Shown: positions 45,644 through 57,213 of the stretch, in pieces
Numbering within the stretch: position 1 is the stretch's first letter
Layout of the letters: each line of letters begins with the position of its first letter
Assembly (NCBI GenBank): GCA_018238155.1
Contig: JABCTZ010000046.1
Coordinates: 256,001-320,000 of the forward strand
Reading direction: 5' to 3'
Origin: Candidatus Heimdallarchaeota archaeon
Lineage (GTDB): Archaea; Asgardarchaeota; Heimdallarchaeia; JABLTI01
Length of the DNA: 64,000 bases
Translations under genes and position numbers: made by a program
Notes under the pieces: model-generated
Database searches by the model: none
What the model was told of the DNA's origin: nothing
The model's input: only the letters and a program-made list of their open reading frames with translations

Positions 45644-46582
45644 GTGAGCAATTTGAAAAAGATTAAGATTATTACAGATAGTACGTGTGATTTGACTATT
45701 GATGAATTGAATGAATTAGATGTTGACTTTGTTCCAGCATATGTAATCATTGAAGGTAAGAAATTCAAACAGAATGTAAATATTACCAATGATGAAGTGT
45801 ATCATCAGCTAATTGTTGAGAAGAAAAAGATTAGTTCCGCAGCATCTTCTCCAGGAGAATTTCACAAAGTTTATGTAAGAGCTCTCAAAGAAGCTGAATC
45901 AATTATTCTCTTAACTGCTCATGGAAAGCTCTCAGCAATGTATAACACTGCTAAAATGGTTGCAGAAAAATTCTTCCCAAAAAGAGATATTACTGTTGTT
46001 GACACAAAAACAGCTTCTTTTGCACATGCAATCCTTGTTCAAGAAGCAGTGCAATTAGTAAAACTTGGTAAATCAAAAGATGAAATAGTTGCTAGGTTAA
46101 GATTTCTTGCTGAAAACACAAAAGCATTACCTCTTTTAGATACTCTCGAATATCTCTATCGAGGTGGAAGAATTAAACTCTATCAAAGACTACTTGGAAA
46201 TCTCATCGGAATCAAAGCATTAGTTCTAATCGATAAAAAAGGCTCCAATATGGATGCAAAAATTAAAGGTAGAAAAAATGCTTTAATTCAACTAAAAATG
46301 TGTGGTTTACAAATCTTAGATCATTTGATCATTAAACGGTTATATGTTGCCTATACAAATAACAAAGAACTTGCAATCGAAGTTGCAGACTTTTTAATCG
46401 AGAACAGTCCTGACGATATTGAAATTTCAATTGGACAACTTGGATCCGTAATAGGAGTTCATGGAGGAAATGATGTTGTCGGTTTTGGCTTTGTTGGAGA
46501 TTACAATGTCAAAATGTTTACTGGTGTAGGTGAAACAGCTAAAGATTTCATAAATGAAAAATTACAAATTGTTAGGGGATGA
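45644..46582 (+). CDS. DegV/FakB fatty-acid-binding protein
   Basis: IITDSTCDL, LSAMYN, VVDTK, TLEYLYRGGRI, IGVHGG. Confidence 0.9.
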   Translation: MSNLKKIKIITDSTCDLTIDELNELDVDFVPAYVIIEGKKFKQNVNITNDEVYHQLIVEKKKISSAASSPGEFHKVYVRALKEAESIILLTAHGKLSAMYNTAKMVAEKFFPKRDITVVDTKTASFAHAILVQEAVQLVKLGKSKDEIVARLRFLAENTKALPLLDTLEYLYRGGRIKLYQRLLGNLIGIKALVLIDKKGSNMDAKIKGRKNALIQLKMCGLQILDHLIIKRLYVAYTNNKELAIEVADFLIENSPDDIEISIGQLGSVIGVHGGNDVVGFGFVGDYNVKMFTGVGETAKDFINEKLQIVRG

Positions 46583-48133
46583 GTCACTAGATTCATCCCT
46601 ATCAACCATTTTTTCAGAATATTGAGCAATGGTTATAGTCTTTACTTGTTCAGGATTTTCTGTTAAATTTGTGATGAGAGACAAGTATCTTGTTAGCATT
46701 TTCTCCGGAGCAATTGTTTTGAAACTTTTTATCACTTTTGCTTCTTTTTCTCCAATGCAACGTAGTTTAAGTTCTTGATCAGATATCTTTTCGAATAACA
46801 AACCAAGTTGGTATTTCTTTTTAATAATTGGATGAACTAATTTAAATGATAAATAAACGGCGTTTTGTGTCAAATCTTGTTGTGAATTCTCATCTGTTAA
46901 TAATTCGCGATATTTTTTCGGTAGAACCAATTTTTCAATATTTATTCTATTGACCGTTTCATAGACTTTTTGTTGAATATTCGAATCTATTTTGGTTAAT
47001 AATTTCGTGTTCAGGATAATATTGCTTAATTTTCCTGTTACATACGATACTGTATAGAGATTATGGTAGTCATTGTATTCTTCTTCAACACTTCTTGTAA
47101 CACATTGCCAATATGATGCTTCTTGCGATATCTTTACTTTCTTTTGAGATTCTACTTGTTCAATATCTTGGAATTCTTTAGTAATCAGTAAATCATCACT
47201 TTTGTGTAATTGTTCTTTGATATCAATGAGTTCTTTGTACTTTGACTTCAAAATGTTTCGAGTCATTCGATTCCACAAATCACCCCAATCAATGAAGAGG
47301 AAAAGAGCTATTATTCCTATACTTGCTATCCAGACTATAGCTGATAACCAAGTTGGAGGAGCATCTCCGGCTATTCCATCAGATGTTAAACCAAATGCCC
47401 AGAAAATTACTCCACCTGCACTTGTCCCTGCCAAGTATTTTGCTACTAGCCCAGTGCCAGTTGTAAGGGCAATTTTTCCTAAAAAGCACCAAATAATCGT
47501 TTTCCAAAGAGCATATCCTAACAATCCAATGAAAATTAATATTGCATCATCAGGCAATGGTGTTGCTGCAAAGAGAAAGATAATCAACGGTGCAAGACCT
47601 TTATCAACCCATTTTTGTGCTCGAGCAACTTGTTTTTCCATACTACCTTCAATTACTTTTTTACTTGCTCGTCCAATTAACCAAGCAGAAGCTTCACCAA
47701 GTGCAGCGCCGGCACCAGCTGCGATACCCATTAAAATTATTAGTGGTGCTGTCATTGATGGTCTTGTTGCTACTGCTACTAAAGCGATTGTATATGGCAC
47801 AGGGAAAATAACCGTTAAATTCCCAAAAATAGAGATAACAAATATTCCGAGAAAGATACCAAATAATCCTACTTTGCTCTCAAACCAATCTACAATGTCA
47901 CTCATTATCACTCCCATGTTTAACTTTAATGCTGCTAAGACGATTATTAATACAACAAATAATGAAAGAAAAATGATTGATGCTAATCTTTCTTTATCCT
48001 TTATTAGCCAACTAACTGCTCTTTTGAAAGGATTTTCACGTTCTTCGAATTCATATTCATTTCGTTGAGTAGAACTATAATTCAATTCCTCTTGTTCAAT
48101 AATTTGTTCAGATTCACGATTATTCTCAGACAT
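46562..48133 (-). CDS. VTT (DedA/VMP1/TMEM41) domain membrane protein with soluble C-terminal extension
   Basis: Re-entrant motifs IFPVPY, GAALGE...W.IGR and FAATPLPDD...G, then GK; about 230-aa hydrophilic C-terminal domain. Confidence 0.85.
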   Translation of the reverse strand: MSENNRESEQIIEQEELNYSSTQRNEYEFEERENPFKRAVSWLIKDKERLASIIFLSLFVVLIIVLAALKLNMGVIMSDIVDWFESKVGLFGIFLGIFVISIFGNLTVIFPVPYTIALVAVATRPSMTAPLIILMGIAAGAGAALGEASAWLIGRASKKVIEGSMEKQVARAQKWVDKGLAPLIIFLFAATPLPDDAILIFIGLLGYALWKTIIWCFLGKIALTTGTGLVAKYLAGTSAGGVIFWAFGLTSDGIAGDAPPTWLSAIVWIASIGIIALFLFIDWGDLWNRMTRNILKSKYKELIDIKEQLHKSDDLLITKEFQDIEQVESQKKVKISQEASYWQCVTRSVEEEYNDYHNLYTVSYVTGKLSNIILNTKLLTKIDSNIQQKVYETVNRINIEKLVLPKKYRELLTDENSQQDLTQNAVYLSFKLVHPIIKKKYQLGLLFEKISDQELKLRCIGEKEAKVIKSFKTIAPEKMLTRYLSLITNLTENPEQVKTITIAQYSEKMVDRDESSDSSPNNL

Positions 48134-48356
48134 TGATTATCTACCTGTTTAATCTTAATGAAATATACAATTAAGGTTTATATAAAATTAGTTTTTATAT
48201 TTACTGCAATAACTAGAATAATAAATATTTGCAAAGTCTATTCAATAAACGTTTTCAAAAGGGCCCGACAAAAAAAGAGCTATATAGCTCGATAGTACAA
48301 TTTTTAACTGATGAAGAATAAATAGTATCATCAAGTAATAATTAGTTAAACCTCCT

Positions 48357-50039
48357 TTGTGGCTGGAGGAAATTGGAGAATTAAACAGAATGGCTTTTAA
48401 AAGAAATGAAAAACAAAAGGGAATTCCCCTTGGAGATAACTTTGTTGACTTCACAACAAGAGTTGATAAGATTTCTCTTGAAACGTTAGTAGAGGTTTCT
48501 GCAAAGTATAATTGCAAACAAGAATTTGCCGGAGTTATTCATTTAGTATCAACTGATTTAAACATCACTCCTGAATTAATATTAAATGATCTCCAATACG
48601 AATTAAAAAGGCTTGAAAAAATTGGTGAAGAACTTCCTGAAATAGAAACATATTTCCATAAATTTGCAATTTCAGAAGGAAAATGGATTGCTTTTTTGAG
48701 AGGATCATATCCAAAGAATTTGATAACAGAAGGAAAAAAAATTCAAACTCAATTTACAAAAATAGGTAAAGTAAAAGGTAGCGATTTGATAACTTTAGCA
48801 ATGCAAATTATGATGGAAAGACAGTTTATCGCTGCAAATACAATACTACCTGTAATAGATAAATGGGTTGAAGAGCACTATGAATCTACAAATTTTGATG
48901 CAGCACTTCACATACTTAGAGGTTATTTAAAGAGAAATGACTTTGATGATATTATTAAACAAATGGAAGAAGCAAAAAAACAATTAGTACAACAAATTCA
49001 AATTTTAGGTGATATTTTAGCGAATGCTGAAAGTTCAAATTGGGTATTTCGCTCATTAATTGAAGTTGAACTTTTACATGAAGATTTGAGTCAAGATTTG
49101 GTAGAATTAACAAATAAAGGTGCAGCAGATATTGTTTTATGGATCGTATCAAAGAGCTATGAACAAACCACAGGAGACTTTACTTCGCAAGAAGATATGT
49201 CAAAATTGATTATGAGATTCCAACTTGAATCTGCCTTAGGTATCTCCTCTGCATCGCCCTTGGCAACATTAGAGTATGAATTATTATCTCTAAATTATAA
49301 AGATAATTTAATAAAGTCAAAATTAGTTGACGAGATGATTTTAAAAGCTTGGAAAGAAGCACGAATTGGTAATAACCCACTTGATATCGGCAGAGAGATC
49401 CTTGCCTTATTGATGGATTACAGTAATACACCACCATTATTTTTATCTAAATTACCAAGGCATTTTGCTTATATCTCAGAATTTTTTGAGAATGATAAAC
49501 TAAGACTAGCACGTGCTCTTGAAAAAGTTAAAATAAAAGGAAAGGAACCAACCGCAAAAGAAATGCAGAATGCGGTTATTCTTGATTATCTAATTATTTT
49601 TGCTAGAAACTTCATAGCAGGTAATATGAAAGCGGATGAAAAAGATCTCAATGTTCCAGATGAACCTAAGAGATTGGATCTAATGCCAGCAGAAAAAGAC
49701 ATCATTGATATGATTGATGCAGCAGTCCAAAGAGGCATTCGCTCCCAAAACAGAGAAAAAGCGATGAAAGTTCTATCAGCGCAAATTCTTTCCATGTATC
49801 AAAGATGTCTTAATCAAGTAAAGAATGAAGTAACTGTTGGAGAATGTATCCTTTATGGAATCTATAATTTAAATGGTATTGAAATATCAAGAGAAAAAGC
49901 CAGAAATTTGATTCTTGATCATTTCACTCGAATGAGAGTTTCAGCTTCTTCTTCGGGAAAGAAAAGAATTGATTCTGTAGTTCAAAAAGCAATTGCTATT
50001 GAAATTGAAGAAAAAATATTCAAAAGGGATATCAAATAA
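48357..50039 (+). CDS. Hypothetical all-helical soluble protein
   Basis: 560-aa ORF; probable start ATG 48390 after a GGAG motif; no motif recognised. Confidence 0.75.
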   Translation: MWLEEIGELNRMAFKRNEKQKGIPLGDNFVDFTTRVDKISLETLVEVSAKYNCKQEFAGVIHLVSTDLNITPELILNDLQYELKRLEKIGEELPEIETYFHKFAISEGKWIAFLRGSYPKNLITEGKKIQTQFTKIGKVKGSDLITLAMQIMMERQFIAANTILPVIDKWVEEHYESTNFDAALHILRGYLKRNDFDDIIKQMEEAKKQLVQQIQILGDILANAESSNWVFRSLIEVELLHEDLSQDLVELTNKGAADIVLWIVSKSYEQTTGDFTSQEDMSKLIMRFQLESALGISSASPLATLEYELLSLNYKDNLIKSKLVDEMILKAWKEARIGNNPLDIGREILALLMDYSNTPPLFLSKLPRHFAYISEFFENDKLRLARALEKVKIKGKEPTAKEMQNAVILDYLIIFARNFIAGNMKADEKDLNVPDEPKRLDLMPAEKDIIDMIDAAVQRGIRSQNREKAMKVLSAQILSMYQRCLNQVKNEVTVGECILYGIYNLNGIEISREKARNLILDHFTRMRVSASSSGKKRIDSVVQKAIAIEIEEKIFKRDIK

Positions 50040-50066
50040 TTAATTTATCCCTTTTTTAAATTATTT

Positions 50067-51251
50067 TTACTGAAGTGTTGCTAAAAGATCATTTGTTCTT
50101 TTAATCCCTTCAAGTATATCTTTCATTTCGCTTGCAAGTGAAATTCTAAGGTAATTTTCTTCAACTCCAAAAACAGAGCCAGCTGTTAAAGCGACTCCTT
50201 TCTCTTCTAGAATCTTTACTGCAAGCTCATTGGATTGCATAGAACCTTGGTATTTCATGAAAAGATAAAAAGCGCCTTTAGGTTTTCTACAAGAAAGATA
50301 ATCACATTTCTCAATCAATTCAAGAGCCTTATCACGGCGATTTTTATATTCAACAACCATTTCAATAGTTGGTTCTTCTAATTCAAGAGCTTTAATTGCT
50401 GCCCATTGGGTTGGTGTATTTACACAAGTGCTAATATTCTGTTGAATTTTATTCATAGAATCAACAAGCTCTTTGTTACCAATTGCATATCCAAATCTCC
50501 ATCCGGTCATAGCATGAGATTTACTTAAACCGTCAATAACTAAAGTTCGCTCCAATGATTGAGAGATTGATAGATATTGGTGAAATGTTCCTTCAAAAAT
50601 AATCTTCTTGTATATTTCATCAGTGATAATCATTAAATCGTTATCATTAGATAAATCATTGATGAATTTCAAAGTGTCTAAATCATAAATTGCACCAGTA
50701 GGATTACTGGGTGAATTAATTAGTATTGCTTTTGTAGTTTTATTGATTGCTTCTTTGATAGCTTCTCTTGGAAAACTAAAATCACCAAGAGGAGCTTGAA
50801 CGACTTTTGTTTCTGCACCAATATATTGAATTATTCCTGAATAACTTGGCCAAAAGGGGGAAATTACAACAATATTATCTCCTGGGTCAACTAGTGAAAC
50901 TAAGGCATTAAACAATGCTGCTTTTGCTCCTGGAGTGGTTATCACATTGCTTCTAGGGTTGATTTCTACACCAGTATCTTTTGAATGAATAGAAGCGATT
51001 TTTTCAAGCAAAGGTCGTATTCCCTTGGCAGATGTATAACCTGTTTTACCTTCTTTCATAGCATCATACGCAACCTCAATTATCTCGGTTGGCGTATTGA
51101 AATTCGGTTGACCAACTTCAAGATGAATAATATCCTTTCCAGTAGCTTCTAGGTCAGTTGATAAAATTTTCATTTTCAAAGTTCCACTAGCAGGAACACG
51201 AAGGGCACATTCTGAAAGTTTTTTATTTTTAGATGTCAAATGAAACACCAC
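50067..51251 (-). CDS. PLP-dependent aminotransferase class I/II (aspartate aminotransferase-like)
   Basis: GQPNF, NSPSNPTG, DEIY, SKSHAMTGWRFG, GAFY. Confidence 0.93.
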   Translation of the reverse strand: MVFHLTSKNKKLSECALRVPASGTLKMKILSTDLEATGKDIIHLEVGQPNFNTPTEIIEVAYDAMKEGKTGYTSAKGIRPLLEKIASIHSKDTGVEINPRSNVITTPGAKAALFNALVSLVDPGDNIVVISPFWPSYSGIIQYIGAETKVVQAPLGDFSFPREAIKEAINKTTKAILINSPSNPTGAIYDLDTLKFINDLSNDNDLMIITDEIYKKIIFEGTFHQYLSISQSLERTLVIDGLSKSHAMTGWRFGYAIGNKELVDSMNKIQQNISTCVNTPTQWAAIKALELEEPTIEMVVEYKNRRDKALELIEKCDYLSCRKPKGAFYLFMKYQGSMQSNELAVKILEEKGVALTAGSVFGVEENYLRISLASEMKDILEGIKRTNDLLATLQ

Positions 51252-51449
51252 AGATGAATACTTAACTGAATTTTTAGTTTTTGATTTGTTTTTAATGGGA
51301 ACCCATTATTGACAATCTAAATCAAACATACATTCTCATTTTTATTCATTACTATCTCTCAGCAATTATTCAATGAAAGTATATCTACTAATAGAGATTT
51401 TTACTCAAAATTCTTGCTGAAAAATTTTTATAGATTTGTTATTATATAG

Positions 51450-53108
51450 ATGAATAGTAAAAACAGAATATCCAAATCAGAAGAGGGCGGTTTAACTCTT
51501 ATGCCATGGTTTACCAAAGAAAAAAAGATTTCCTTAGAAGTGCTTTTAGAAGATCCTCCAACTGATGAAAAGAGTAGAGTAAACAATATTCACACAAGTC
51601 AAAATTCTAAACTTATTAGAGAAAAAATAAGAAGTTGGATAAAAGATAACCGGTTGGTTCTTTTCATTTGGATCCTTGCTTTAGCTTTAAGAATTATCTC
51701 AGCGATACTTAGCAAAGGATACATTCATCCTGATGAGCATTATCAATCAATTGAAGTTGTTTTTAACAAAATATATGGTTTTGGATTCGTTCCGTGGGAA
51801 TTTACCGAAGGTGCAAGATCATGGTTTTATCCGGGCATTGTTTATATCATATTTAAAGTAATGATATTTTTTGGAGCATCATCAATTGATTCAATTCTAA
51901 TCGGTGTTCGTTTATTTTCAGGTTTACTTTCAATGATATCTGTCATTGTTGCCTATTATTTCGGAAAGTTAATATTTAACAAAGAAGCTGGTTTATTTGC
52001 TACATTTTTCATTGCAGTTTGGTATGACTTTATTTTTTGGGCAACAAGAACAATGACTGACGGTTTAGCTATGAATTTTGTTTTTCTAGCAACATACCTC
52101 ATCTATAAAGGTGCTAATACAATAATAAACGATACTTCTGATACTAAAAAACAAAAACGGCAGTCTGTTGGATGTTTTATTTTTGCAGGGATGAGTATAG
52201 GAGTAGCGTTTATGTTCAAATTTCCGGCAGCGATTATTGCACTTCCATTGCTTATTTATTTAGTAATAAAGAAAAAATGGATTGGTATGTTTGTTTTTTG
52301 TTTTTCAATTCTATTTATTGTTATAATCCAAGGTTTAATTGATTTGTTTACTTGGGGAACATTCCTACATTCAGCAATAGTTTTTTTCAATTATAACATA
52401 ACAAGTGGTTCGAGTTCATTACATGGAACAGCACCCATTTATGCTTATCTTGGTTTATTTGCATACACTTATTCCTTTTTCGCATTAATGTATCTACTCT
52501 ACTTGGTCATTGGAACAAATAAAAATAAGAAAGCATTTTTCTTGATTGTGATCTCACTATTTTTTGTTCTAGTATTTAGCGTTATTGAGCACAAGGAATA
52601 TCGCTTCATATTACCTATTTTGCCATTGTTTGTCTTAATCGCAGCAAATGGCATGAATAGATATCCACAGTTTATAAAGAAAAAAAATCTTCGTAAAAGT
52701 GTTCATGTATTTACTACTTTATTCATTATTTTTAGTTCAGCTAGCATTGGTTTTTTTGACGCATCTTTTAGACCTAATTACAACTATTGCCAAACCTTTG
52801 ACTATGTAAAAAACCATGAAGAGATTACAACTGTAATTCTTATCAGAGAGAATATATTCAATACTCCTGGATACGCCTATTTAGGTTCTGAATTGCACAT
52901 TGATATAATATCTTGGTCTAAAATAGACAAAGTGTATTCAGAATTCAAGAATTCTTCAATTTGTTTTATTATGACAGAAGAAATTTTTGACAATAGACCG
53001 TGGATTGGTTTGACTTTTCAAAAAAACAATATCTCTTGTGTGTTCAGTAGTATTGGAATAATGAAACACAAAGAAGCAAAGCTATGCATATATCAAAAAA
53101 ATAACTGA
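51450..53108 (+). CDS. GT22 (Alg9/PIG-B/PIG-Z-Smp3) Dol-P-Man-type mannosyltransferase
   Basis: YIHPDEHYQSIE, PWEF..GARSW, TRTMTD, HKEYRFILP; about 11 TMs. Confidence 0.85.
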   Translation: MNSKNRISKSEEGGLTLMPWFTKEKKISLEVLLEDPPTDEKSRVNNIHTSQNSKLIREKIRSWIKDNRLVLFIWILALALRIISAILSKGYIHPDEHYQSIEVVFNKIYGFGFVPWEFTEGARSWFYPGIVYIIFKVMIFFGASSIDSILIGVRLFSGLLSMISVIVAYYFGKLIFNKEAGLFATFFIAVWYDFIFWATRTMTDGLAMNFVFLATYLIYKGANTIINDTSDTKKQKRQSVGCFIFAGMSIGVAFMFKFPAAIIALPLLIYLVIKKKWIGMFVFCFSILFIVIIQGLIDLFTWGTFLHSAIVFFNYNITSGSSSLHGTAPIYAYLGLFAYTYSFFALMYLLYLVIGTNKNKKAFFLIVISLFFVLVFSVIEHKEYRFILPILPLFVLIAANGMNRYPQFIKKKNLRKSVHVFTTLFIIFSSASIGFFDASFRPNYNYCQTFDYVKNHEEITTVILIRENIFNTPGYAYLGSELHIDIISWSKIDKVYSEFKNSSICFIMTEEIFDNRPWIGLTFQKNNISCVFSSIGIMKHKEAKLCIYQKNN

Positions 53109-53127
53109 TTTAAAAATAATAAAAATT

Positions 53128-53153
53128 ATCAACACTCTTTTCCAAGTGTTGAT
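53128..53153. terminator. Bidirectional hairpin between convergent genes
   Basis: ATCAACACT-cttttcca-AGTGTTGAT perfect 9-bp stem. Confidence 0.55.
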
Positions 53154-53192
53154 GGTAATCATTTCGTTATGAAAGAGATTTTAGACTATTAC

Positions 53193-53498
53193 TCAACCAA
53201 AGAGTGAGCTTAATCCAGATTCTTCTTCCTCTTCTTCTTCTTCTTCTGGTTCTGGGGCTGCTTTAGCTGGAGCGGCGGCAGCGGCGGCTGGGGAAGCAGC
53301 TACAGGAGCAGCGGCGGGCATTACAGCAGCAGTTTTGAGAGCCTCTTTGATGTCAACTTCACCAAGAGCAGCAACTAAACCTTTGATTCTGTTCTTGTCT
53401 GGAGTTAATCCAGCAGCAGTTAGTATTTCACCAATTGCTTTTTCAGTGACCTTTTTACCAGATGAATGTAATATTAAAGACGCATGAAGGTATTCCAT
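53193..53498 (-). CDS. rpl12: 50S ribosomal stalk protein P1 (L12p)
   Basis: MEYLHASLILH..., Ala-rich hinge, poly-Glu, C-terminal GLSSLFG. Confidence 0.95.
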   Translation of the reverse strand: MEYLHASLILHSSGKKVTEKAIGEILTAAGLTPDKNRIKGLVAALGEVDIKEALKTAAVMPAAAPVAASPAAAAAAPAKAAPEPEEEEEEEEESGLSSLFG

Positions 53499-53745
53499 TT
53501 TTGTTTTTCTCCAATTTTTTATACTATTTTTTTGTTCTAGTTTGATTTACAAGTACAAGTTACTTGCAACTATCTTGAGAAGGTTTTTGTTTCTTTTAAA
53601 AATCTTCTGTTGATAAACAAAAATACTGAACAATGCAATTTCACTTATATCAAATATTAAAACTATTGCTAAAGAAAAAATTAAATCCACAAGTATTAAA
53701 AACATGAATGAAAAATAGATTTTATACTATATCGAGGTTTAAACA

Positions 53746-54582
53746 ATGCCCCCAAAGAAAAAAAATCCTGAGAAAAAGAAGAAATCCATCCCAAAAGAGA
53801 AGATTATCAAAATGGTGAAAGATCAAGAATACGTTGATTTAGGAGAACCTTTTGGTGAGAGTGCGAGAAGATATCTTGCTTTTCAGTTAACAAAATTGAT
53901 AGATAAAAAGGAAATAACAGGAACGGTTATTACACCAGAAGGAGTTTTCATTTCTCTTTCAGCTTCCGAAGTGAAAGACATTGTTCGTTTAATTAAAGCC
54001 AAAGGCATTTCTAATCTAGAAAAACTTGCAGAAGAGAACAAGTGGAATTCAAAAGTAGTAACATTGATTGCAAAGTCACGAATCAACCTTATTCAAAGAA
54101 AAGACAACAAAGTAATCACAAGAGATTCTGCAAAAGATATTCTCTATCAAAGTGTAATTCAAGGTGTTGATATAGATATATACGAATTAGCAGAAGAATT
54201 ACAACTTAAGAAATCTATTACAAGGGAATTACTTCAATCATTAATTGATGATGGCAAGATCGAAGGTGTTTATGTAAAATCTTCCCATAAATTTCTACCA
54301 ATGGAAATGCTTGAAGAATCTATTAGAGAACTTATAGACGATTTGGAAATGCAAAAAGTTTCATCTGTAACTTTTACCGCAATAGCAGAAAATTACAGTA
54401 TTTCTGATGAACAAGTATACAATATTTTATTGAAGCTTCACAATGTGGGAGATATTGACGTTCAACTAAACATGGGTCAAAAAATTTGTTTAATCAAAGA
54501 AAATATCGAAACTGAGAAAATTATTGAAAGAATACCTGAAGAAGAGAAAAAATTAGACATTGAAGATTTAACTCAGAAATAG
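53746..54582 (+). CDS. Tandem winged-helix protein, DDRGK1/UFL1 (PCI-like WH)-like
   Basis: About four WH repeats (LIDKKEITG.., KGISNLEKLAEE, IDIYELAEELQL...LIDDGKIEG, VTFTAIAENYSIS); Lys-rich N-terminus. Confidence 0.7.
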   Translation: MPPKKKNPEKKKKSIPKEKIIKMVKDQEYVDLGEPFGESARRYLAFQLTKLIDKKEITGTVITPEGVFISLSASEVKDIVRLIKAKGISNLEKLAEENKWNSKVVTLIAKSRINLIQRKDNKVITRDSAKDILYQSVIQGVDIDIYELAEELQLKKSITRELLQSLIDDGKIEGVYVKSSHKFLPMEMLEESIRELIDDLEMQKVSSVTFTAIAENYSISDEQVYNILLKLHNVGDIDVQLNMGQKICLIKENIETEKIIERIPEEEKKLDIEDLTQK

Positions 54583-54703
54583 AAAGCCTACTAAAATGTA
54601 CAATATGTGGTTAAAAGAAAGTTTTTATGTAGAAGAAATTAAAGTGAATAAAGATTATTAATTTGTGTTAAGAATGCAGGTATAATTAATTGGAGGAAAA
54701 AAA

Positions 54704-55489
54704 TTGAGTGCGAAACCACCTAAAAAACTTAAAAAACCTAGAAAAATTCCTGATGAATATGAAATATTAGTAATTAAATTAACCATGGAACTCAAAAAAG
54801 AAGTTGGAAAAGAAATAGCAGCCTTACTTCTTGTTGGAAGCGTTGCGGATAATAACTACATGAAAGGTGACTCTGATTGCGATTTCTATTTAGTAATTAA
54901 GAAAGATAGAGATAAACAAGTAGAAATTCTCCAAAAGATTGGTCAAGTCAAAGCCAAGTTTGAGAATGATCCTCAGTATTCATCACTTCTGGATTTAATG
55001 GTCTTCTTTGAAGAAGATCTTAATGAGGAAAACATTAATGCTTCAAGTATTGTCAATTGGGTTCACATTTGGACAGGACAACAGGGAATCCTAAAAATTG
55101 GCGAAGAAAATCCATTTGATAACGTAAAAATCACTCCTTCAAAACTCAAAAAAGGAGCTACACAGATGTGTCTGGATAATGTCTTTGTTATGCGTGATGG
55201 TTTTGTAAACACTTCAGCAGGAAAGGACGAAGAATTAGCCTTTTATGCAAGCGATGCAGCAATTGGATGTGCTCAAGCATATTTGATTCACTTGGGAGAA
55301 AAGAAATTTAACAGATACAACATCCCTGAACTTTTCGCAGAAAAAAGTACTGTAAAAGTAGATTCAAATATAATTAAAAAAGCAAGAGATTATCGAGTAG
55401 GTGCAAAAATCGATGACATTCATGAATTCCTTGAAAAGTGTTACGATTTTGGCTGGGCATTATTAGAAAACATGCTAAAAGGTAAATAG
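54704..55489 (+). CDS. Pol-beta-type nucleotidyltransferase with C-terminal helical (HEPN-like/substrate-binding) domain
   Basis: LLVGSVA...GDSDCDFYLV (GS + DxD), third Asp in LLDLMV. Confidence 0.82.
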   Translation: MSAKPPKKLKKPRKIPDEYEILVIKLTMELKKEVGKEIAALLLVGSVADNNYMKGDSDCDFYLVIKKDRDKQVEILQKIGQVKAKFENDPQYSSLLDLMVFFEEDLNEENINASSIVNWVHIWTGQQGILKIGEENPFDNVKITPSKLKKGATQMCLDNVFVMRDGFVNTSAGKDEELAFYASDAAIGCAQAYLIHLGEKKFNRYNIPELFAEKSTVKVDSNIIKKARDYRVGAKIDDIHEFLEKCYDFGWALLENMLKGK

Positions 55490-55513
55490 AAATTTCAATG
55501 AAGGGAACGAAAT

Positions 55514-56179
55514 TTGGCAAGTGAAAAAATAATCGTTAGATTGAAGGACCTTATCGGTAAAACTGATTCACAAATTTACTTGATTATTGGTCCCCCTGGT
55601 TCAGGGAAGGAAGGATTTGCATTACAGTATTTAATTGATGGATTTGCTGAGAAGAATAATGGTATTTTTCTCACAACTGATAGCTTTCCAAAAGAGATAA
55701 CTGACAAGATGAAACGATTAGGTGTTGATCCTGCTACTTTTATCACTGCAAAACAATTACAATTCATTGATGTCTTCTCTTATCGTACTGGCGAAAGCAT
55801 AAAAGACAATGGCTTAACTGTAAATAGCATTCGAGAATTGACCAGTATTAGTGTAATCATCAAGAAGTTAATTGATTCTACTGAAAAACTTAGACTTGTG
55901 ATGAATACAATTTCCACAATATCTATTTATAATTCAGAAATAGCAATACTTGATTTCATTCAAGCACAAGTCGCAAGATTAAAGCAACACAACCATTGTG
56001 GAATAATCGTTGCTCAACAAGGTATGATGAATGAAAAAGTCATTCAAGGAATAAAAGCAATTGTTGATGGCGTTATTGAATTCCAATCAATTACTGACGA
56101 GAAAGGTGTATCTCAAAAAAGATTGAGAGTAGAATTTGCACCTAAAATTAAGAAGACTGGTTGGATCAATCTATACTGA
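55514..56179 (+). CDS. KaiC/RAD55-like ATPase
   Basis: Walker A GPPGSGKE, FIDVFS, Walker-B-like LVMNTIS, IVDGVIE; 24 bp after the NTase. Confidence 0.88.
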   Translation: MASEKIIVRLKDLIGKTDSQIYLIIGPPGSGKEGFALQYLIDGFAEKNNGIFLTTDSFPKEITDKMKRLGVDPATFITAKQLQFIDVFSYRTGESIKDNGLTVNSIRELTSISVIIKKLIDSTEKLRLVMNTISTISIYNSEIAILDFIQAQVARLKQHNHCGIIVAQQGMMNEKVIQGIKAIVDGVIEFQSITDEKGVSQKRLRVEFAPKIKKTGWINLY

Positions 56180-56511
56180 TAAACAACGCGTATTCCTAAT
56201 TTCGTTTATTTATTTTTTTTACTTATTCTTAAATAAAGAAAATATACTGTACATATTCTCAAATATTCGAACGTCTATTTTAATGGAGAAAAAATCACAG
56301 GCGCTTATTATCGTTGATACTGTCTTCTTTAGTCTTGACCTCATCATAGAGAATTATGTTTTTTACCATATCTATCATTAGAAAATAATAAAAGCTGTAA
56401 TCACCTAATATTTTGAAATCTCAAGGATTTTTTTTGAATCACATTTCATTGTATACAAACCTACTTATAGATTTAAATAGACCCTTGTAAAAACGTATCA
56501 AGTGGTTAACC

Positions 56512-57213
56512 ATGACAAATTGGTGGGAATATGTTCTAGCTTTATCCCCTTCTGTAGTAATTCTTGTTGCGTATTTACTTAATTACGTTCTGGGTAAAAA
56601 GAAGAACAAGCATTTTGTATTAGAAATGTTATCGAAAATAGCTGTTCCGTTAAATGATTATTGTGACTCATTTGAGAAAGTCACACAAGAAAAAGAGAGA
56701 TACCAATTAGTTTGTAAACCAAGTCAAGATTCTCCTTTGAAAGCAATGGTTGTTTTAGGAATCCCTATTGGTAGACCATTTCTCCTTCCTTTTATCTGGG
56801 ACAAAATTAGAAAACACAGAGACAAATATACTCTCTCAGCGAACTTGAAGAAAAGACCACCCTTTTCACTTGAAATTGTTTCGAGGAAACGAAAGAAGGT
56901 TCTAAAAGGTGATCAAGATTACTTCATGTCACTTAAAGAAGTAAATACAACAGGATTCCTCAATGAATTTTTCATCATTAAAACAAACAATGTTCGCTCT
57001 GCAACAAAACTGTTGTCAAATGAAAGTTTACTTAGACTTTTAGCAAAAACTCGTTCAGAAACTCTTTGGCTTTCATTAAGGTACGAGGTTAAAGAAGTTG
57101 GTATGCAATTTGAATCCATCTTTGAATATGAAGAAGAACAAATAGAGAACACTGTTGAATTGTTTTTAGAAGTAATTGATGCTATTCCATATCCGCGTAA
57201 AGGTAAATACTGA
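56512..57213 (+). CDS. N-anchored membrane protein, CCDC47/DUF1682 (PAT complex)-like
   Basis: Single N-terminal TM ending in LVAYLLNYVLGKKKN, followed by a soluble alpha/beta domain. Confidence 0.7.
   Translation: MTNWWEYVLALSPSVVILVAYLLNYVLGKKKNKHFVLEMLSKIAVPLNDYCDSFEKVTQEKERYQLVCKPSQDSPLKAMVVLGIPIGRPFLLPFIWDKIRKHRDKYTLSANLKKRPPFSLEIVSRKRKKVLKGDQDYFMSLKEVNTTGFLNEFFIIKTNNVRSATKLLSNESLLRLLAKTRSETLWLSLRYEVKEVGMQFESIFEYEEEQIENTVELFLEVIDAIPYPRKGKY

What the first reader, a model, noticed from the sequence alone, without database searches (positions are those of the whole stretch)
51450..53108. PIG-Z/Smp3-like GPI mannosyltransferase motif set
Seen: YIHPDEHYQSIE...PWEF...ARSW and HKEYRF. Recalled yeast Smp3 (GPI mannosyltransferase 4) has YIHPDEHFQCIE...PWEF...ARSY and PIG-B has PDEYWQSLE, so the first luminal loop looks closer to the GPI-pathway GT22s than to Alg9/Alg12. 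GT22 also occurs in some bacteria. Inference: it mannosylates an inositol-containing archaeal lipid or a lipid-linked glycan on the outer leaflet.
Basis: partly seen in the sequence, partly recalled or inferred. Interest (0 to 1): 0.72.

Follow-up and report, generated by a model that had tools for sequence, protein, structure and literature searches.

The report
Heimdall archaeon ALG9/PIG-B-family mannosyltransferase gene
This is a real, intact archaeal relative of the eukaryotic ER mannosyltransferases (ALG9, ALG12, PIG-B, PIG-Z) that most likely adds mannose to a surface glycan on the outer face of the membrane, and nothing in the genome ties it to a GPI-anchor pathway.

Summary
The ORF at 51450-53108 (+, 552 aa) exists, and every quoted motif is present. 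It is a clear GT22 member (Pfam PF03901, E 9e-55). The AlphaFold model (pLDDT 92) matches chicken ALG12 and human ALG9 best. All residues shown to matter in ALG9 are kept: base D95, phosphate ligands R123 and R385, mannose-orienting N316 and H381.

The "PIG-Z/Smp3-like" motif set is not specific to GPI enzymes. HPDExxQxxE and HKExRF occur in 370 prokaryotic stretches and are near-invariant in 110 diverse homologues.

The genome (91% complete) and its family (12 genomes) lack PIG-M, PIG-V and GAA1. The genome itself also lacks PIG-U, the PIGA domain, PIG-T, PigN and ALG3. It does have AglB/STT3, a Dol-P-Man-synthase homologue and an inositol-phosphate synthase.

The gene belongs to a Heimdallarchaeia clade (A) that is sister to a second paralogue (B) in the same genome. 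GT22 is almost confined to this class among 400 Asgard genomes.

Only one eukaryotic sequence (an ALG9) could be obtained, and its placement is unresolved. Two 2026 papers already report Asgard ancestry of lumenal glycosyltransferases and PIG-B, and this scan had found such genes before in other Heimdall DNA.

Verdict: a new member of a known kind. The acceptor is unknown.

The parts
51450..53108 (+). GT22 (Glyco_transf_22) polytopic mannosyltransferase gene, 552 aa, Heimdall clade A
   Evidence: ORF. Pfam PF03901 at 187 bits. AF2 model pLDDT 92. Best Foldseek hits are GgALG12 and HsALG9.
51421..51437 (+). TATA-like box (AAAAATTTTTATAGATT) just upstream of the ATG; probably a short-leader or leaderless promoter
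   Evidence: Read directly from the sequence. Inference only.
51450..51650 (+). N-terminal cytoplasmic tail (about residues 1-67), Lys/Arg-rich, partly disordered
   Evidence: pLDDT below 65 up to about residue 50. Length varies among homologues. Sidedness is inferred from the positive-inside rule.
51711..51824 (+). First extracytoplasmic loop (residues 88-125), holding HPDE (93-96; D95 is the predicted catalytic base), Q99, E102, PWEF and ARSW (R123 is the predicted donor-phosphate ligand)
   Evidence: D95 and R123 are invariant, and E96/Q99/E102/W116/E117/S124 are at least 90% conserved, in 110 homologues. D95 aligns with HsALG9 D82 and R123 with R112 (PMC13503287).
52341..52397 (+). GLIDLFTWG...NYN segment: invariant D298 and N316 (equivalent to ALG9 N288, which orients the donor mannose)
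   Evidence: for GgALG12 N247; PMC13503287.
52590..52607 (+). HKEYRF motif (residues 381-386): H381 corresponds to ALG9 H366 (donor mannose) and R385 to ALG9 R370 (donor phosphate)
   Evidence: R385 is invariant and H381/K382/E383/F386 are at least 90% conserved. Alignment to 9s6s and 9s6t.
52779..53105 (+). C-terminal alpha/beta domain (residues 444-552), predicted to lie outside the membrane after TM13; also present in bacterial GT22
   Evidence: Five strands and helices at pLDDT above 90. Conserved C447, G474 and Y477. Bacterial ESM-Atlas GT22 models align through residue 552. Sidedness is inferred from the TM count.

Best explanation
The gene encodes a GT-C (GT-C_A fold), CAZy GT22-family inverting glycosyltransferase with about 13 membrane helices. 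The N-terminus is cytoplasmic; the catalytic first loop and a C-terminal alpha/beta domain lie outside. It most likely takes mannose from a polyprenyl (dolichyl) phosphate-mannose donor made by a DPMS-type GT2 and flipped outward. D95 would deprotonate an acceptor hydroxyl. R123 and R385 would hold the leaving phosphate. N316 and H381 would position the axial C2-OH of mannose. The product would be an alpha-linked mannose on a membrane-anchored or surface glycan. The most plausible acceptor is the lipid-linked or already transferred N-glycan handled by the genome's AglB/STT3. It is one of two sister paralogues (A here, B on contig C1) kept by its family, which may act in consecutive steps. Shown here: family membership, fold, conservation of the catalytic residues, and presence of candidate donor synthase and oligosaccharyltransferase genes. 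Inferred: the sugar (mannose), the sidedness, the acceptor, and any division of labour between the paralogues.
For: Pfam GT22 at 187 bits. A profile of 110 homologues hits HsALG9 at 123 bits and GgALG12 at 104 bits. AF2 gives pLDDT 92 and pTM 0.89. Foldseek's top hits are 9s6t ALG12 (TM 0.64/0.73) and 9s6s/9s6u ALG9 (0.67-0.69), ahead of ArnT and STT3. All five functionally tested ALG9 residues (D82, R112, N288, H366, R370; PMC13503287) align with the invariant or near-invariant D95, R123, N316, H381 and R385. The genome encodes a 441-aa GtrA_DPMS_TM+GT2 protein whose best PDB match is P. furiosus Dol-P-Man synthase 5mlz (E 3e-33). It also encodes an STT3/AglB (151 bits). GT22 is present in 11/11 other genomes of the family, usually in two copies. 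Synteny is conserved.
Against: No acceptor information exists. The gene stands alone between a divergent aminotransferase and a convergent ribosomal P1 gene, with no glycan genes nearby. No prokaryotic GT22 came up as biochemically characterised in the papers and PDB entries read here (none among the PDB matches). Mannose as the sugar rests on two conserved residues studied only in ALG9 and ALG12. The upstream enzyme of the eukaryotic lumenal route (ALG3) is absent, so the acceptor cannot be the eukaryotic Man5-7 intermediate as such.
Confidence: 0.6

Rival explanations
1. It is a GPI-type (PIG-B/PIG-Z-like) mannosyltransferase that extends a glycan on an inositol-containing archaeal lipid, such as a glycosylated archaetidylinositol. 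That would make it part of a proto-GPI or glycolipid-anchor pathway.
For: The first-loop motif carries the Q (HPDExxQxxE) that ALG9 lacks. The genome has a myo-inositol-1-phosphate synthase (106 bits). A 2026 preprint lists PIGB (K05286) among gene trees with a possible Asgard origin. A 2026 Nature paper calls GPI synthesis Asgard-derived. JGI labels some bacterial relatives 'GPI mannosyltransferase 3'.
Against: No PIG-M, PIG-V, PIG-U, PIGA domain, GAA1, PIG-T or PigN in this genome. PIG-M, PIG-V and GAA1 are at 0/12 in its family. One PIG-L hit lies in a bshC-bshB-bshA-type operon and the other is an orphan. The C13 hits are secreted Ig-domain legumain-like proteins. The motif is shared by hundreds of bacterial GT22. 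PIG-B and PIG-Z add the third and fourth mannose, so they need a Man2 acceptor that nothing here could make by the known route.
Confidence: 0.12
2. It is a GT22 enzyme of the bacterial type that builds some other envelope polymer, such as an exopolysaccharide, a glycolipid or an O-linked protein glycan. It may use a sugar other than mannose, and the lineage may have been acquired from or shared with bacteria.
For: The nearest named ESM-Atlas clusters by features and by shape are bacterial GT22, at TM 0.75/0.82, better than to ALG9/12. In the tree with ALG9, clade A+B sits on the side of the bacteria and unlabelled prokaryotes with SH-aLRT 85-88. Relatives in other prokaryotes sit beside GT87, GT2 and epimerase genes.
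Against: Clade A+B is a well-supported Heimdall-only clade (99) outside the named bacterial clade (99). The mannose-selecting N and H are kept. The AU test does not reject other placements.
Confidence: 0.2
3. It is a direct orthologue of ALG9 or ALG12 that extends a eukaryote-like oligomannose lipid-linked oligosaccharide.
For: The best structural matches are ALG12 and ALG9. The catalytic constellation is the same. Two paralogues mirror the ALG9/ALG12 pair.
Against: P0001 alone reaches only 22 bits to ALG12 and nothing to ALG9. The loop motif differs from ALG9's. ALG3 is absent. The single eukaryotic ALG9 obtained prefers the other Asgard clade C/O: delta lnL 0.8 against 10.1 for A/B, neither rejected.
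Confidence: 0.06

Closest known systems
ALG9 and ALG12 (ER-lumenal Dol-P-Man alpha-1,2 and alpha-1,6 mannosyltransferases, CAZy GT22; PDB 9s6s, 9s6u, 9s6t; PMC13503287)
   Same: Same Pfam family and the same GT-C_A fold (TM 0.64-0.73). The catalytic Asp is in the first outward loop. The Arg pair for the donor phosphate and the Asn/His pair for the donor mannose are the same, as is the HKExRF motif.
   Different: Sequence identity is 14-17%. The loop reads HPDEHYQSIE rather than DCDETFNYWEP. There is an extra bacterial-type C-terminal alpha/beta domain. No ALG3 is present, so there is no eukaryotic Man5-8 acceptor series. The enzyme sits in the cell membrane, not the ER.
PIG-B/Gpi10 and PIG-Z/Smp3 (GPI mannosyltransferases III and IV, CAZy GT22; PMC7704450, PMC6056205)
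   Same: Same CAZy/Pfam family and a DE catalytic motif between TM1 and TM2. The Pfam score of P0001 (E 9e-55) is comparable to that reported for human PIG-Z (6.4e-52). A preprint reports possible Asgard ancestry for PIGB.
   Different: No sequence or structure of these was available here, so orthology is untested. The genes for all earlier GPI steps and for the transamidase are absent from the genome.
Uncharacterised bacterial GT22 proteins (Myxococcota, Alphaproteobacteria such as Inquilinus, Acidobacteriota, Cyanobacteria, Rhodothermaceae)
   Same: About 22-30% identity over nearly the full length. They share the motifs, a length of about 480-560 aa and the C-terminal domain. They are the nearest ESM-Atlas clusters by features and by shape.
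   Different: The Heimdall proteins form their own clades (A+B and C/O).
AglS of Haloferax volcanii (archaeal Dol-P-Man mannosyltransferase that adds the last N-glycan mannose outside the cell; cited in PMC4973528)
   Same: This is the proposed working model: an archaeal polytopic enzyme that uses Dol-P-Man on the outer face to finish an N-glycan.
   Different: [quoted passage not shown] It is a functional analogy only and was not tested here.

Membership tests
CAZy GT22 / Pfam PF03901 Glyco_transf_22 | Significant full-length match to the family model | tested here: met
   187 bits against a cut-off of 23.8, covering profile positions 2-413 of 414; the same result in the six-frame genome search.
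CAZy GT22 / Pfam PF03901 Glyco_transf_22 | GT-C_A fold closest to solved GT22 structures | tested here: met
   AF2 pLDDT 92. Foldseek ranks 1-3 are 9s6t, 9s6s and 9s6u, at E about 1e-11 and TM 0.64-0.73.
CAZy GT22 / Pfam PF03901 Glyco_transf_22 | Catalytic base in the first outward loop, plus the donor-phosphate Arg pair and the donor-mannose Asn/His pair | tested here: met
   D95, R123, R385, N316 and H381 align with HsALG9 D82, R112, R370, N288 and H366. They are invariant or at least 90% conserved in 110 homologues (PMC13503287).
CAZy GT22 / Pfam PF03901 Glyco_transf_22 | Transfers mannose from Dol-P-Man with inversion | not testable with these tools
   This needs an enzyme assay. A DPMS homologue is present.
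GPI mannosyltransferase III/IV (PIG-B, PIG-Z/Smp3) | Orthology: branches with PIG-B or PIG-Z in a GT22 tree | not testable with these tools
   No PIG-B or PIG-Z sequence could be obtained, and no PDB entry matched. The literature lead is a single preprint.
GPI mannosyltransferase III/IV (PIG-B, PIG-Z/Smp3) | Works within a GPI pathway: PIG-A complex, PIG-L, PIG-M, PIG-V, EtNP transferases and the transamidase are present | tested here: not met
   No PIG-M, PIG-V, PIG-U, PIGA, GAA1, PIG-T or PigN in the genome. PIG-M, PIG-V and GAA1 are at 0/12 in the family, and PIG-U gives only two 25-bit hits. The PIG-L hits are explained otherwise. The C13 hits have a different architecture. The genome is 90.7% complete.
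GPI mannosyltransferase III/IV (PIG-B, PIG-Z/Smp3) | A first-loop motif specific to the GPI enzymes | tested here: inconclusive
   The motif differs from ALG9's. It is common to 370 prokaryotic GT22 stretches and so is not diagnostic. The PIG-B/PIG-Z forms are known here only from recollection.
ALG9 / ALG12 orthologues | Branches with ALG9 or ALG12 | tested here: inconclusive
   One eukaryotic ALG9 (P0303, 222 bits to HsALG9) joins near Asgard clade C/O on a branch of length 3.8. AU test: with A/B p 0.18, with C/O p 0.62, with bacteria p 0.11.
ALG9 / ALG12 orthologues | The preceding lumenal enzyme ALG3 is present, providing the Man6 acceptor | tested here: not met
   PF05208 gives no match in the genome.

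The most novel reading that the evidence does not exclude
The two sister GT22 paralogues of this Heimdall family (clade A here, clade B on contig C1), together with the DPMS homologue and AglB, could form an archaeal 'outside-the-membrane' extension stage of a lipid-linked glycan. That stage would be the direct forerunner of the eukaryotic ER-lumenal mannosylation steps (ALG9/ALG12 and/or PIG-B/PIG-Z). If so, the lumenal half of N-glycan or GPI assembly predates the ER and arose in Heimdallarchaeia.
Probability: 0.15. Interest if true: 0.75.

Novelty: new member of a known kind. Interest (0 to 1): 0.4.

Why it matters
A 2016 analysis still described the ER-lumenal glycosyltransferases as unique to eukaryotes (PMC4973528). 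Here GT22 turns out to be common in the class holding Heimdall- and Hod-named archaea: 46 of 83 genomes, in at least three clades. It is almost absent from 317 other Asgard genomes. That pattern fits the 2026 reports of Asgard ancestry for lumenal glycosyltransferases and PIG-B. These genes are therefore good candidates for biochemical tests of how the lumenal half of eukaryotic glycan assembly began. This particular gene adds a well-modelled, catalytically intact example with a clear paralogue partner. It does not by itself reveal a new mechanism or a GPI pathway. It also shows that NCBI's label for its relatives, 'glycosyltransferase family 39', names the wrong family.

Tried and rejected
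- **Obtaining eukaryotic PIG-B, PIG-Z and ALG12 sequences for a tree failed.** The whole-protein search gave only prokaryotes in its top 120. Cluster look-ups of ten long-contig hits gave no names, and those hits proved to be Rhodothermaceae-like. The exhaustive profile search lists only 150 of 11,504 hits, none of which could be shown to be eukaryotic.
- **A search limited to the first loop (residues 84-140)** found 17 candidates, all Heimdall.
- **A core-region profile searched against longer proteins** gave a single eukaryote, an ALG9.
- **PDB chain sequences have no reference**, so they were not typed in.
- **The AU test with the mixture model did not finish**. It was replaced by LG+F+G4.
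- **The PIG-L matches as GPI evidence were rejected.** One sits in a bshC/bshB/bshA-like operon.
- **The Peptidase_C13 matches as GPI8 were rejected.** They are signal-peptide, Ig/CarboxypepD_reg-domain proteins that match only about positions 105-200 of the model.
- **The TTTAGCT promoter box** reported elsewhere in this genome is absent upstream of the gene.
- **Gene neighbourhood as a functional clue was rejected.** The neighbours are conserved but unrelated to glycans.
- **The taxonomy of the unlabelled prokaryotic groups nearest clade A+B** (P0159, P0162 and similar) could not be settled.

Full report
**Observation.** The window holds one ORF at exactly 51450..53108 on the plus strand, 552 aa with an ATG start. 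Pfam PF03901 (Glyco_transf_22, "Alg9-like mannosyltransferase family") matches residues 73-478 over nearly the whole model at 187 bits (E 8.9e-55; cut-off 23.8). A secondary PMT_2 match is typical of GT-C enzymes. An A/T-rich TATA-like box lies 13-26 nt upstream of the ATG.

**Organism and copies.** The window is part of a 4.08-Mb, 46-contig MAG that is 90.7% complete with 5.9% contamination. The closest homologues (40-75% identity) come from MAGs named Candidatus Heimdallarchaeota or "Asgard group".
- The genome has a second GT22 gene on contig C1 (586 aa, P0156, 33% identical).
- Among 400 genomes of the phylum, PF03901 is found in 51.
- 46 of those belong to the 83 genomes of the window's own class: its family 11/11, other families 13/31, 3/3, 12/12, 5/22 and 1/2.
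- The 5 hits outside the class are marginal, with E between 1e-6 and 8e-4.

**Is the motif set PIG-Z/Smp3-specific? No.** The patterns H[PA]DEx[YF]Q[ST][IL]E and HKE[YF]RF, taken from the Heimdall alignment, matched 428 stretches in one genome per prokaryotic species. Of these, 370 encode relatives. They include Myxococcota, Inquilinus and other Alphaproteobacteria, Acidobacteriota, Microcystis, Rhodothermaceae and Bdellovibrionota.
- Nearly every homologue retrieved carries HPDE..Q..E and HKE.RF.
- In an alignment of 110 diverse homologues, D95, R123, D298 and R385 are invariant. E96, Q99, E102, W116, E117, S124, N316, H381, K382, E383 and F386 are at least 90% conserved.
- The loop does differ from ALG9, which reads DCDETFNYWEP both in the human structure's sequence and in a protist ALG9.
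- A search restricted to residues 84-140 returned only Heimdall proteins.

**Fold and catalytic residues.** AlphaFold2 with the 110-sequence alignment gave pLDDT 92 and pTM 0.89.
- Foldseek's best PDB matches are chicken ALG12 (9s6t, TM 0.64/0.73) and human ALG9 (9s6s and 9s6u, 0.67-0.69). ArnT and the STT3/AglB/PglB group follow.
- By sequence, the 110-member profile hits HsALG9 at 123 bits and GgALG12 at 104 bits. P0001 alone reaches only 22 bits to ALG12.
- The structural paper on these enzymes (PMC13503287) defines the roles of the ALG9 residues. D82 is the catalytic base. R112 and R370 are the donor-phosphate ligands. N288 and H366 orient the axial C2-OH of the donor mannose, and so help select Dol-P-Man over Dol-P-Glc.
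- The deposited chains are numbered +6 relative to the native protein. Allowing for that, these residues align with P0001 D95, R123, R385, N316 and H381, all invariant or nearly so.
- The helix pattern and the Lys/Arg-rich loops at 223-231, 356-359 and 405-412 imply 13 TM helices. The N-terminus is inside. Outside lie loop 1, the D298-N316 region, the HKEYRF turn and the C-terminal alpha/beta domain (444-552). This topology is an inference and the positive-inside rule.

**Pathway context in the genome.** Six-frame HMM searches found no match to any of the following in the genome:
- PIG-M, PIG-V (16), PIG-U (18), the PIGA domain (19) and GAA1 (21);
- ALG3 (22), PIG-T/Gpi16 (86) and PigN (88).

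Across the 12 genomes of the family, PIG-M, PIG-V and GAA1 are 0/12, and PIG-U gives two 25-bit hits. In the whole class only marginal GT-C cross-matches of 20-36 bits appear, mostly in one other family.
- The two PIG-L-family genes are not GPI evidence. One lies between a BshC-like and a GT4 gene, a bacillithiol-type operon. The other lies next to a Ras-family GTPase.
- The eight Peptidase_C13 matches cover only the catalytic core. They belong to secreted proteins with Ig or CarboxypepD_reg domains, so they are legumain-like rather than GPI8-like.
- Present are an STT3/AglB (151 bits) and a 441-aa GtrA_DPMS_TM+GT2 protein whose best PDB match is Pyrococcus Dol-P-Man synthase 5mlz (E 3e-33).
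- A myo-inositol-1-phosphate synthase is also present. An inositol lipid is therefore possible, but nothing links it to this gene.

**Neighbourhood.** The gene is divergent from a class I/II aminotransferase and convergent with the ribosomal stalk protein P1 gene. No glycan gene is adjacent. The 14-kb gene order around it is conserved in 6-7 genomes whose GT22 is only 42-72% identical. This shows the gene is native, but it gives no functional clue.

**Phylogeny.** In a tree of 86 prokaryotic GT22 (LG+C20+F+G4, SH-aLRT):
- P0001 lies in Heimdall clade A (100), which is sister to clade B holding the genome's second copy (99);
- other members of the class, including MAGs named Hodarchaeota and "Hermodarchaeota", form clade C/O (99);
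- all named bacteria form one clade (99);
- the deep relations are unresolved.

P0001 therefore does not nest inside the bacterial clade. Its nearest named ESM-Atlas clusters, by language-model features and by shape, are nevertheless bacterial GT22, at TM 0.75/0.82 including the C-terminal domain.

Eukaryotic sequences were very hard to obtain. Only one was found, an ALG9 orthologue from EukProt (P0303, 222 bits to HsALG9).
- Added to a 55-row tree, it joins on a very long branch (3.8) next to clade C/O. Clade A+B sits on the other side with bacteria and unlabelled prokaryotes, at SH-aLRT 85-88.
- AU tests reject nothing. ALG9 with A/B gives delta lnL 10.1 (p 0.18), with C/O 0.8 (p 0.62), and with bacteria 15.4 (p 0.11).
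- The relation to PIG-B and PIG-Z could not be tested.

**Literature.**
- A 2016 analysis described the lumen glycosyltransferases as unique to eukaryotes (PMC4973528).
- A 2026 Nature paper states that cytoplasmic and lumenal monoglycosyltransferases and GPI-anchor synthesis are Asgard-associated (PMC12872458).
- A 2026 preprint lists PIGB (K05286) among pruned trees with possible archaeal origin. It also notes Myxococcota contributions to GPI synthesis (10.64898/2026.05.08.723234).
- The broad evolutionary point is therefore already published. No paper found here characterises an Asgard GT22 biochemically.
- My class-wide searches suggest that the "Asgard-derived" GPI components are distant relatives rather than a working pathway in this lineage. 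This is an inference.
- Earlier reports of this scan had already described a Heimdall GT22 in another genome, with the same conclusion, and had noted the second copy in this genome.

**Conclusion.**
- The finding is a genuine, catalytically intact GT22 glycosyltransferase.
- It is most likely a polyprenyl-phosphate-mannose-dependent alpha-mannosyltransferase acting on a surface or lipid-linked glycan outside the membrane (confidence about 0.6).
- A GPI-type role is possible but unsupported (about 0.12).
- It is a new member of a known kind and of moderate interest for eukaryogenesis.

Noticed in passing
window 46562-57213: The conserved block around the GT22 gene holds several proteins with weak matches to ER-biogenesis families. 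These are a VTT/DedA-like 523-aa protein (PF09335, below cut-off), a 278-aa protein with weak PCI, E3_UFM1_ligase and DDRGK hits, and a 233-aa protein hitting CCDC47 at 27.9 bits against a cut-off of 27.7. A KaiC-like ATPase and a nucleotidyltransferase are also there. The order is conserved in 6-7 related genomes. The scan noted this before (e1-5497099).
   Followed up: partly
G000:C1:48064-49284 (L002:1141-2901, minus strand): A second GT22 paralogue (586 aa, clade B, 33% identical, with an insertion in loop 1 and another after TM8). It lies next to a beta-CASP RNase gene. Most genomes of the genus carry both copies.
   Followed up: partly
G000:C41:343657-347013 (L012): A bacillithiol-type gene trio in an Asgard archaeon: BshC-like (270 bits), PIG-L/BshB-like deacetylase and GT4/BshA-like glycosyltransferase, all on one strand.
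   Followed up: no
G000 contigs C10, C33, C1, C17, C41, C39, C11, C19 (L003-L010): Eight paralogous secreted proteins of about 300-410 aa. Each combines an Ig-like or CarboxypepD_reg domain with a legumain/GPI8-family (Peptidase_C13) catalytic core.
   Followed up: partly
G000:C19:107167-110541 (L011): A Ras-family small GTPase (172 bits) lies directly beside an orphan PIG-L/LmbE-family deacetylase and an amidohydrolase.
   Followed up: no
genomes G057-G076 (family f6, which includes MAGs named Hodarchaeota and Hermodarchaeota): Weak but above-cut-off matches to PIG-V (26-36 bits, 7 of 22 genomes), and to PIG-M and PIG-U (about 23-26 bits), in 420-490-aa polytopic ORFs. These may be further GT-C relatives of GPI enzymes in the lineage nearest eukaryotes.
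   Followed up: no
L019 and L020 (DATKZI01, named 'Candidatus Bathyarchaeia archaeon SMAG_U14241'): This MAG carries both Heimdall GT22 clades, and its clade A copy sits in the same gene order as in the window, so its NCBI name is probably wrong.
   Followed up: no
P0004, P0011, P0012, P0014, P0023, P0027, P0030 (NCBI names): Public annotation calls these GT22 proteins 'glycosyltransferase family 39 protein' or 'phospholipid carrier-dependent glycosyltransferase'. JGI calls them ArnT-like. Their best Pfam family is GT22.
   Followed up: yes
L097 (NCBI MAG GCA_015232015.1): In an unlabelled prokaryote the GT22 gene sits beside GT87, GT2 (polyprenyl-phosphate-sugar-synthase-like) and epimerase genes. 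This is a glycan-assembly cluster of the kind missing around the Heimdall gene.
   Followed up: no
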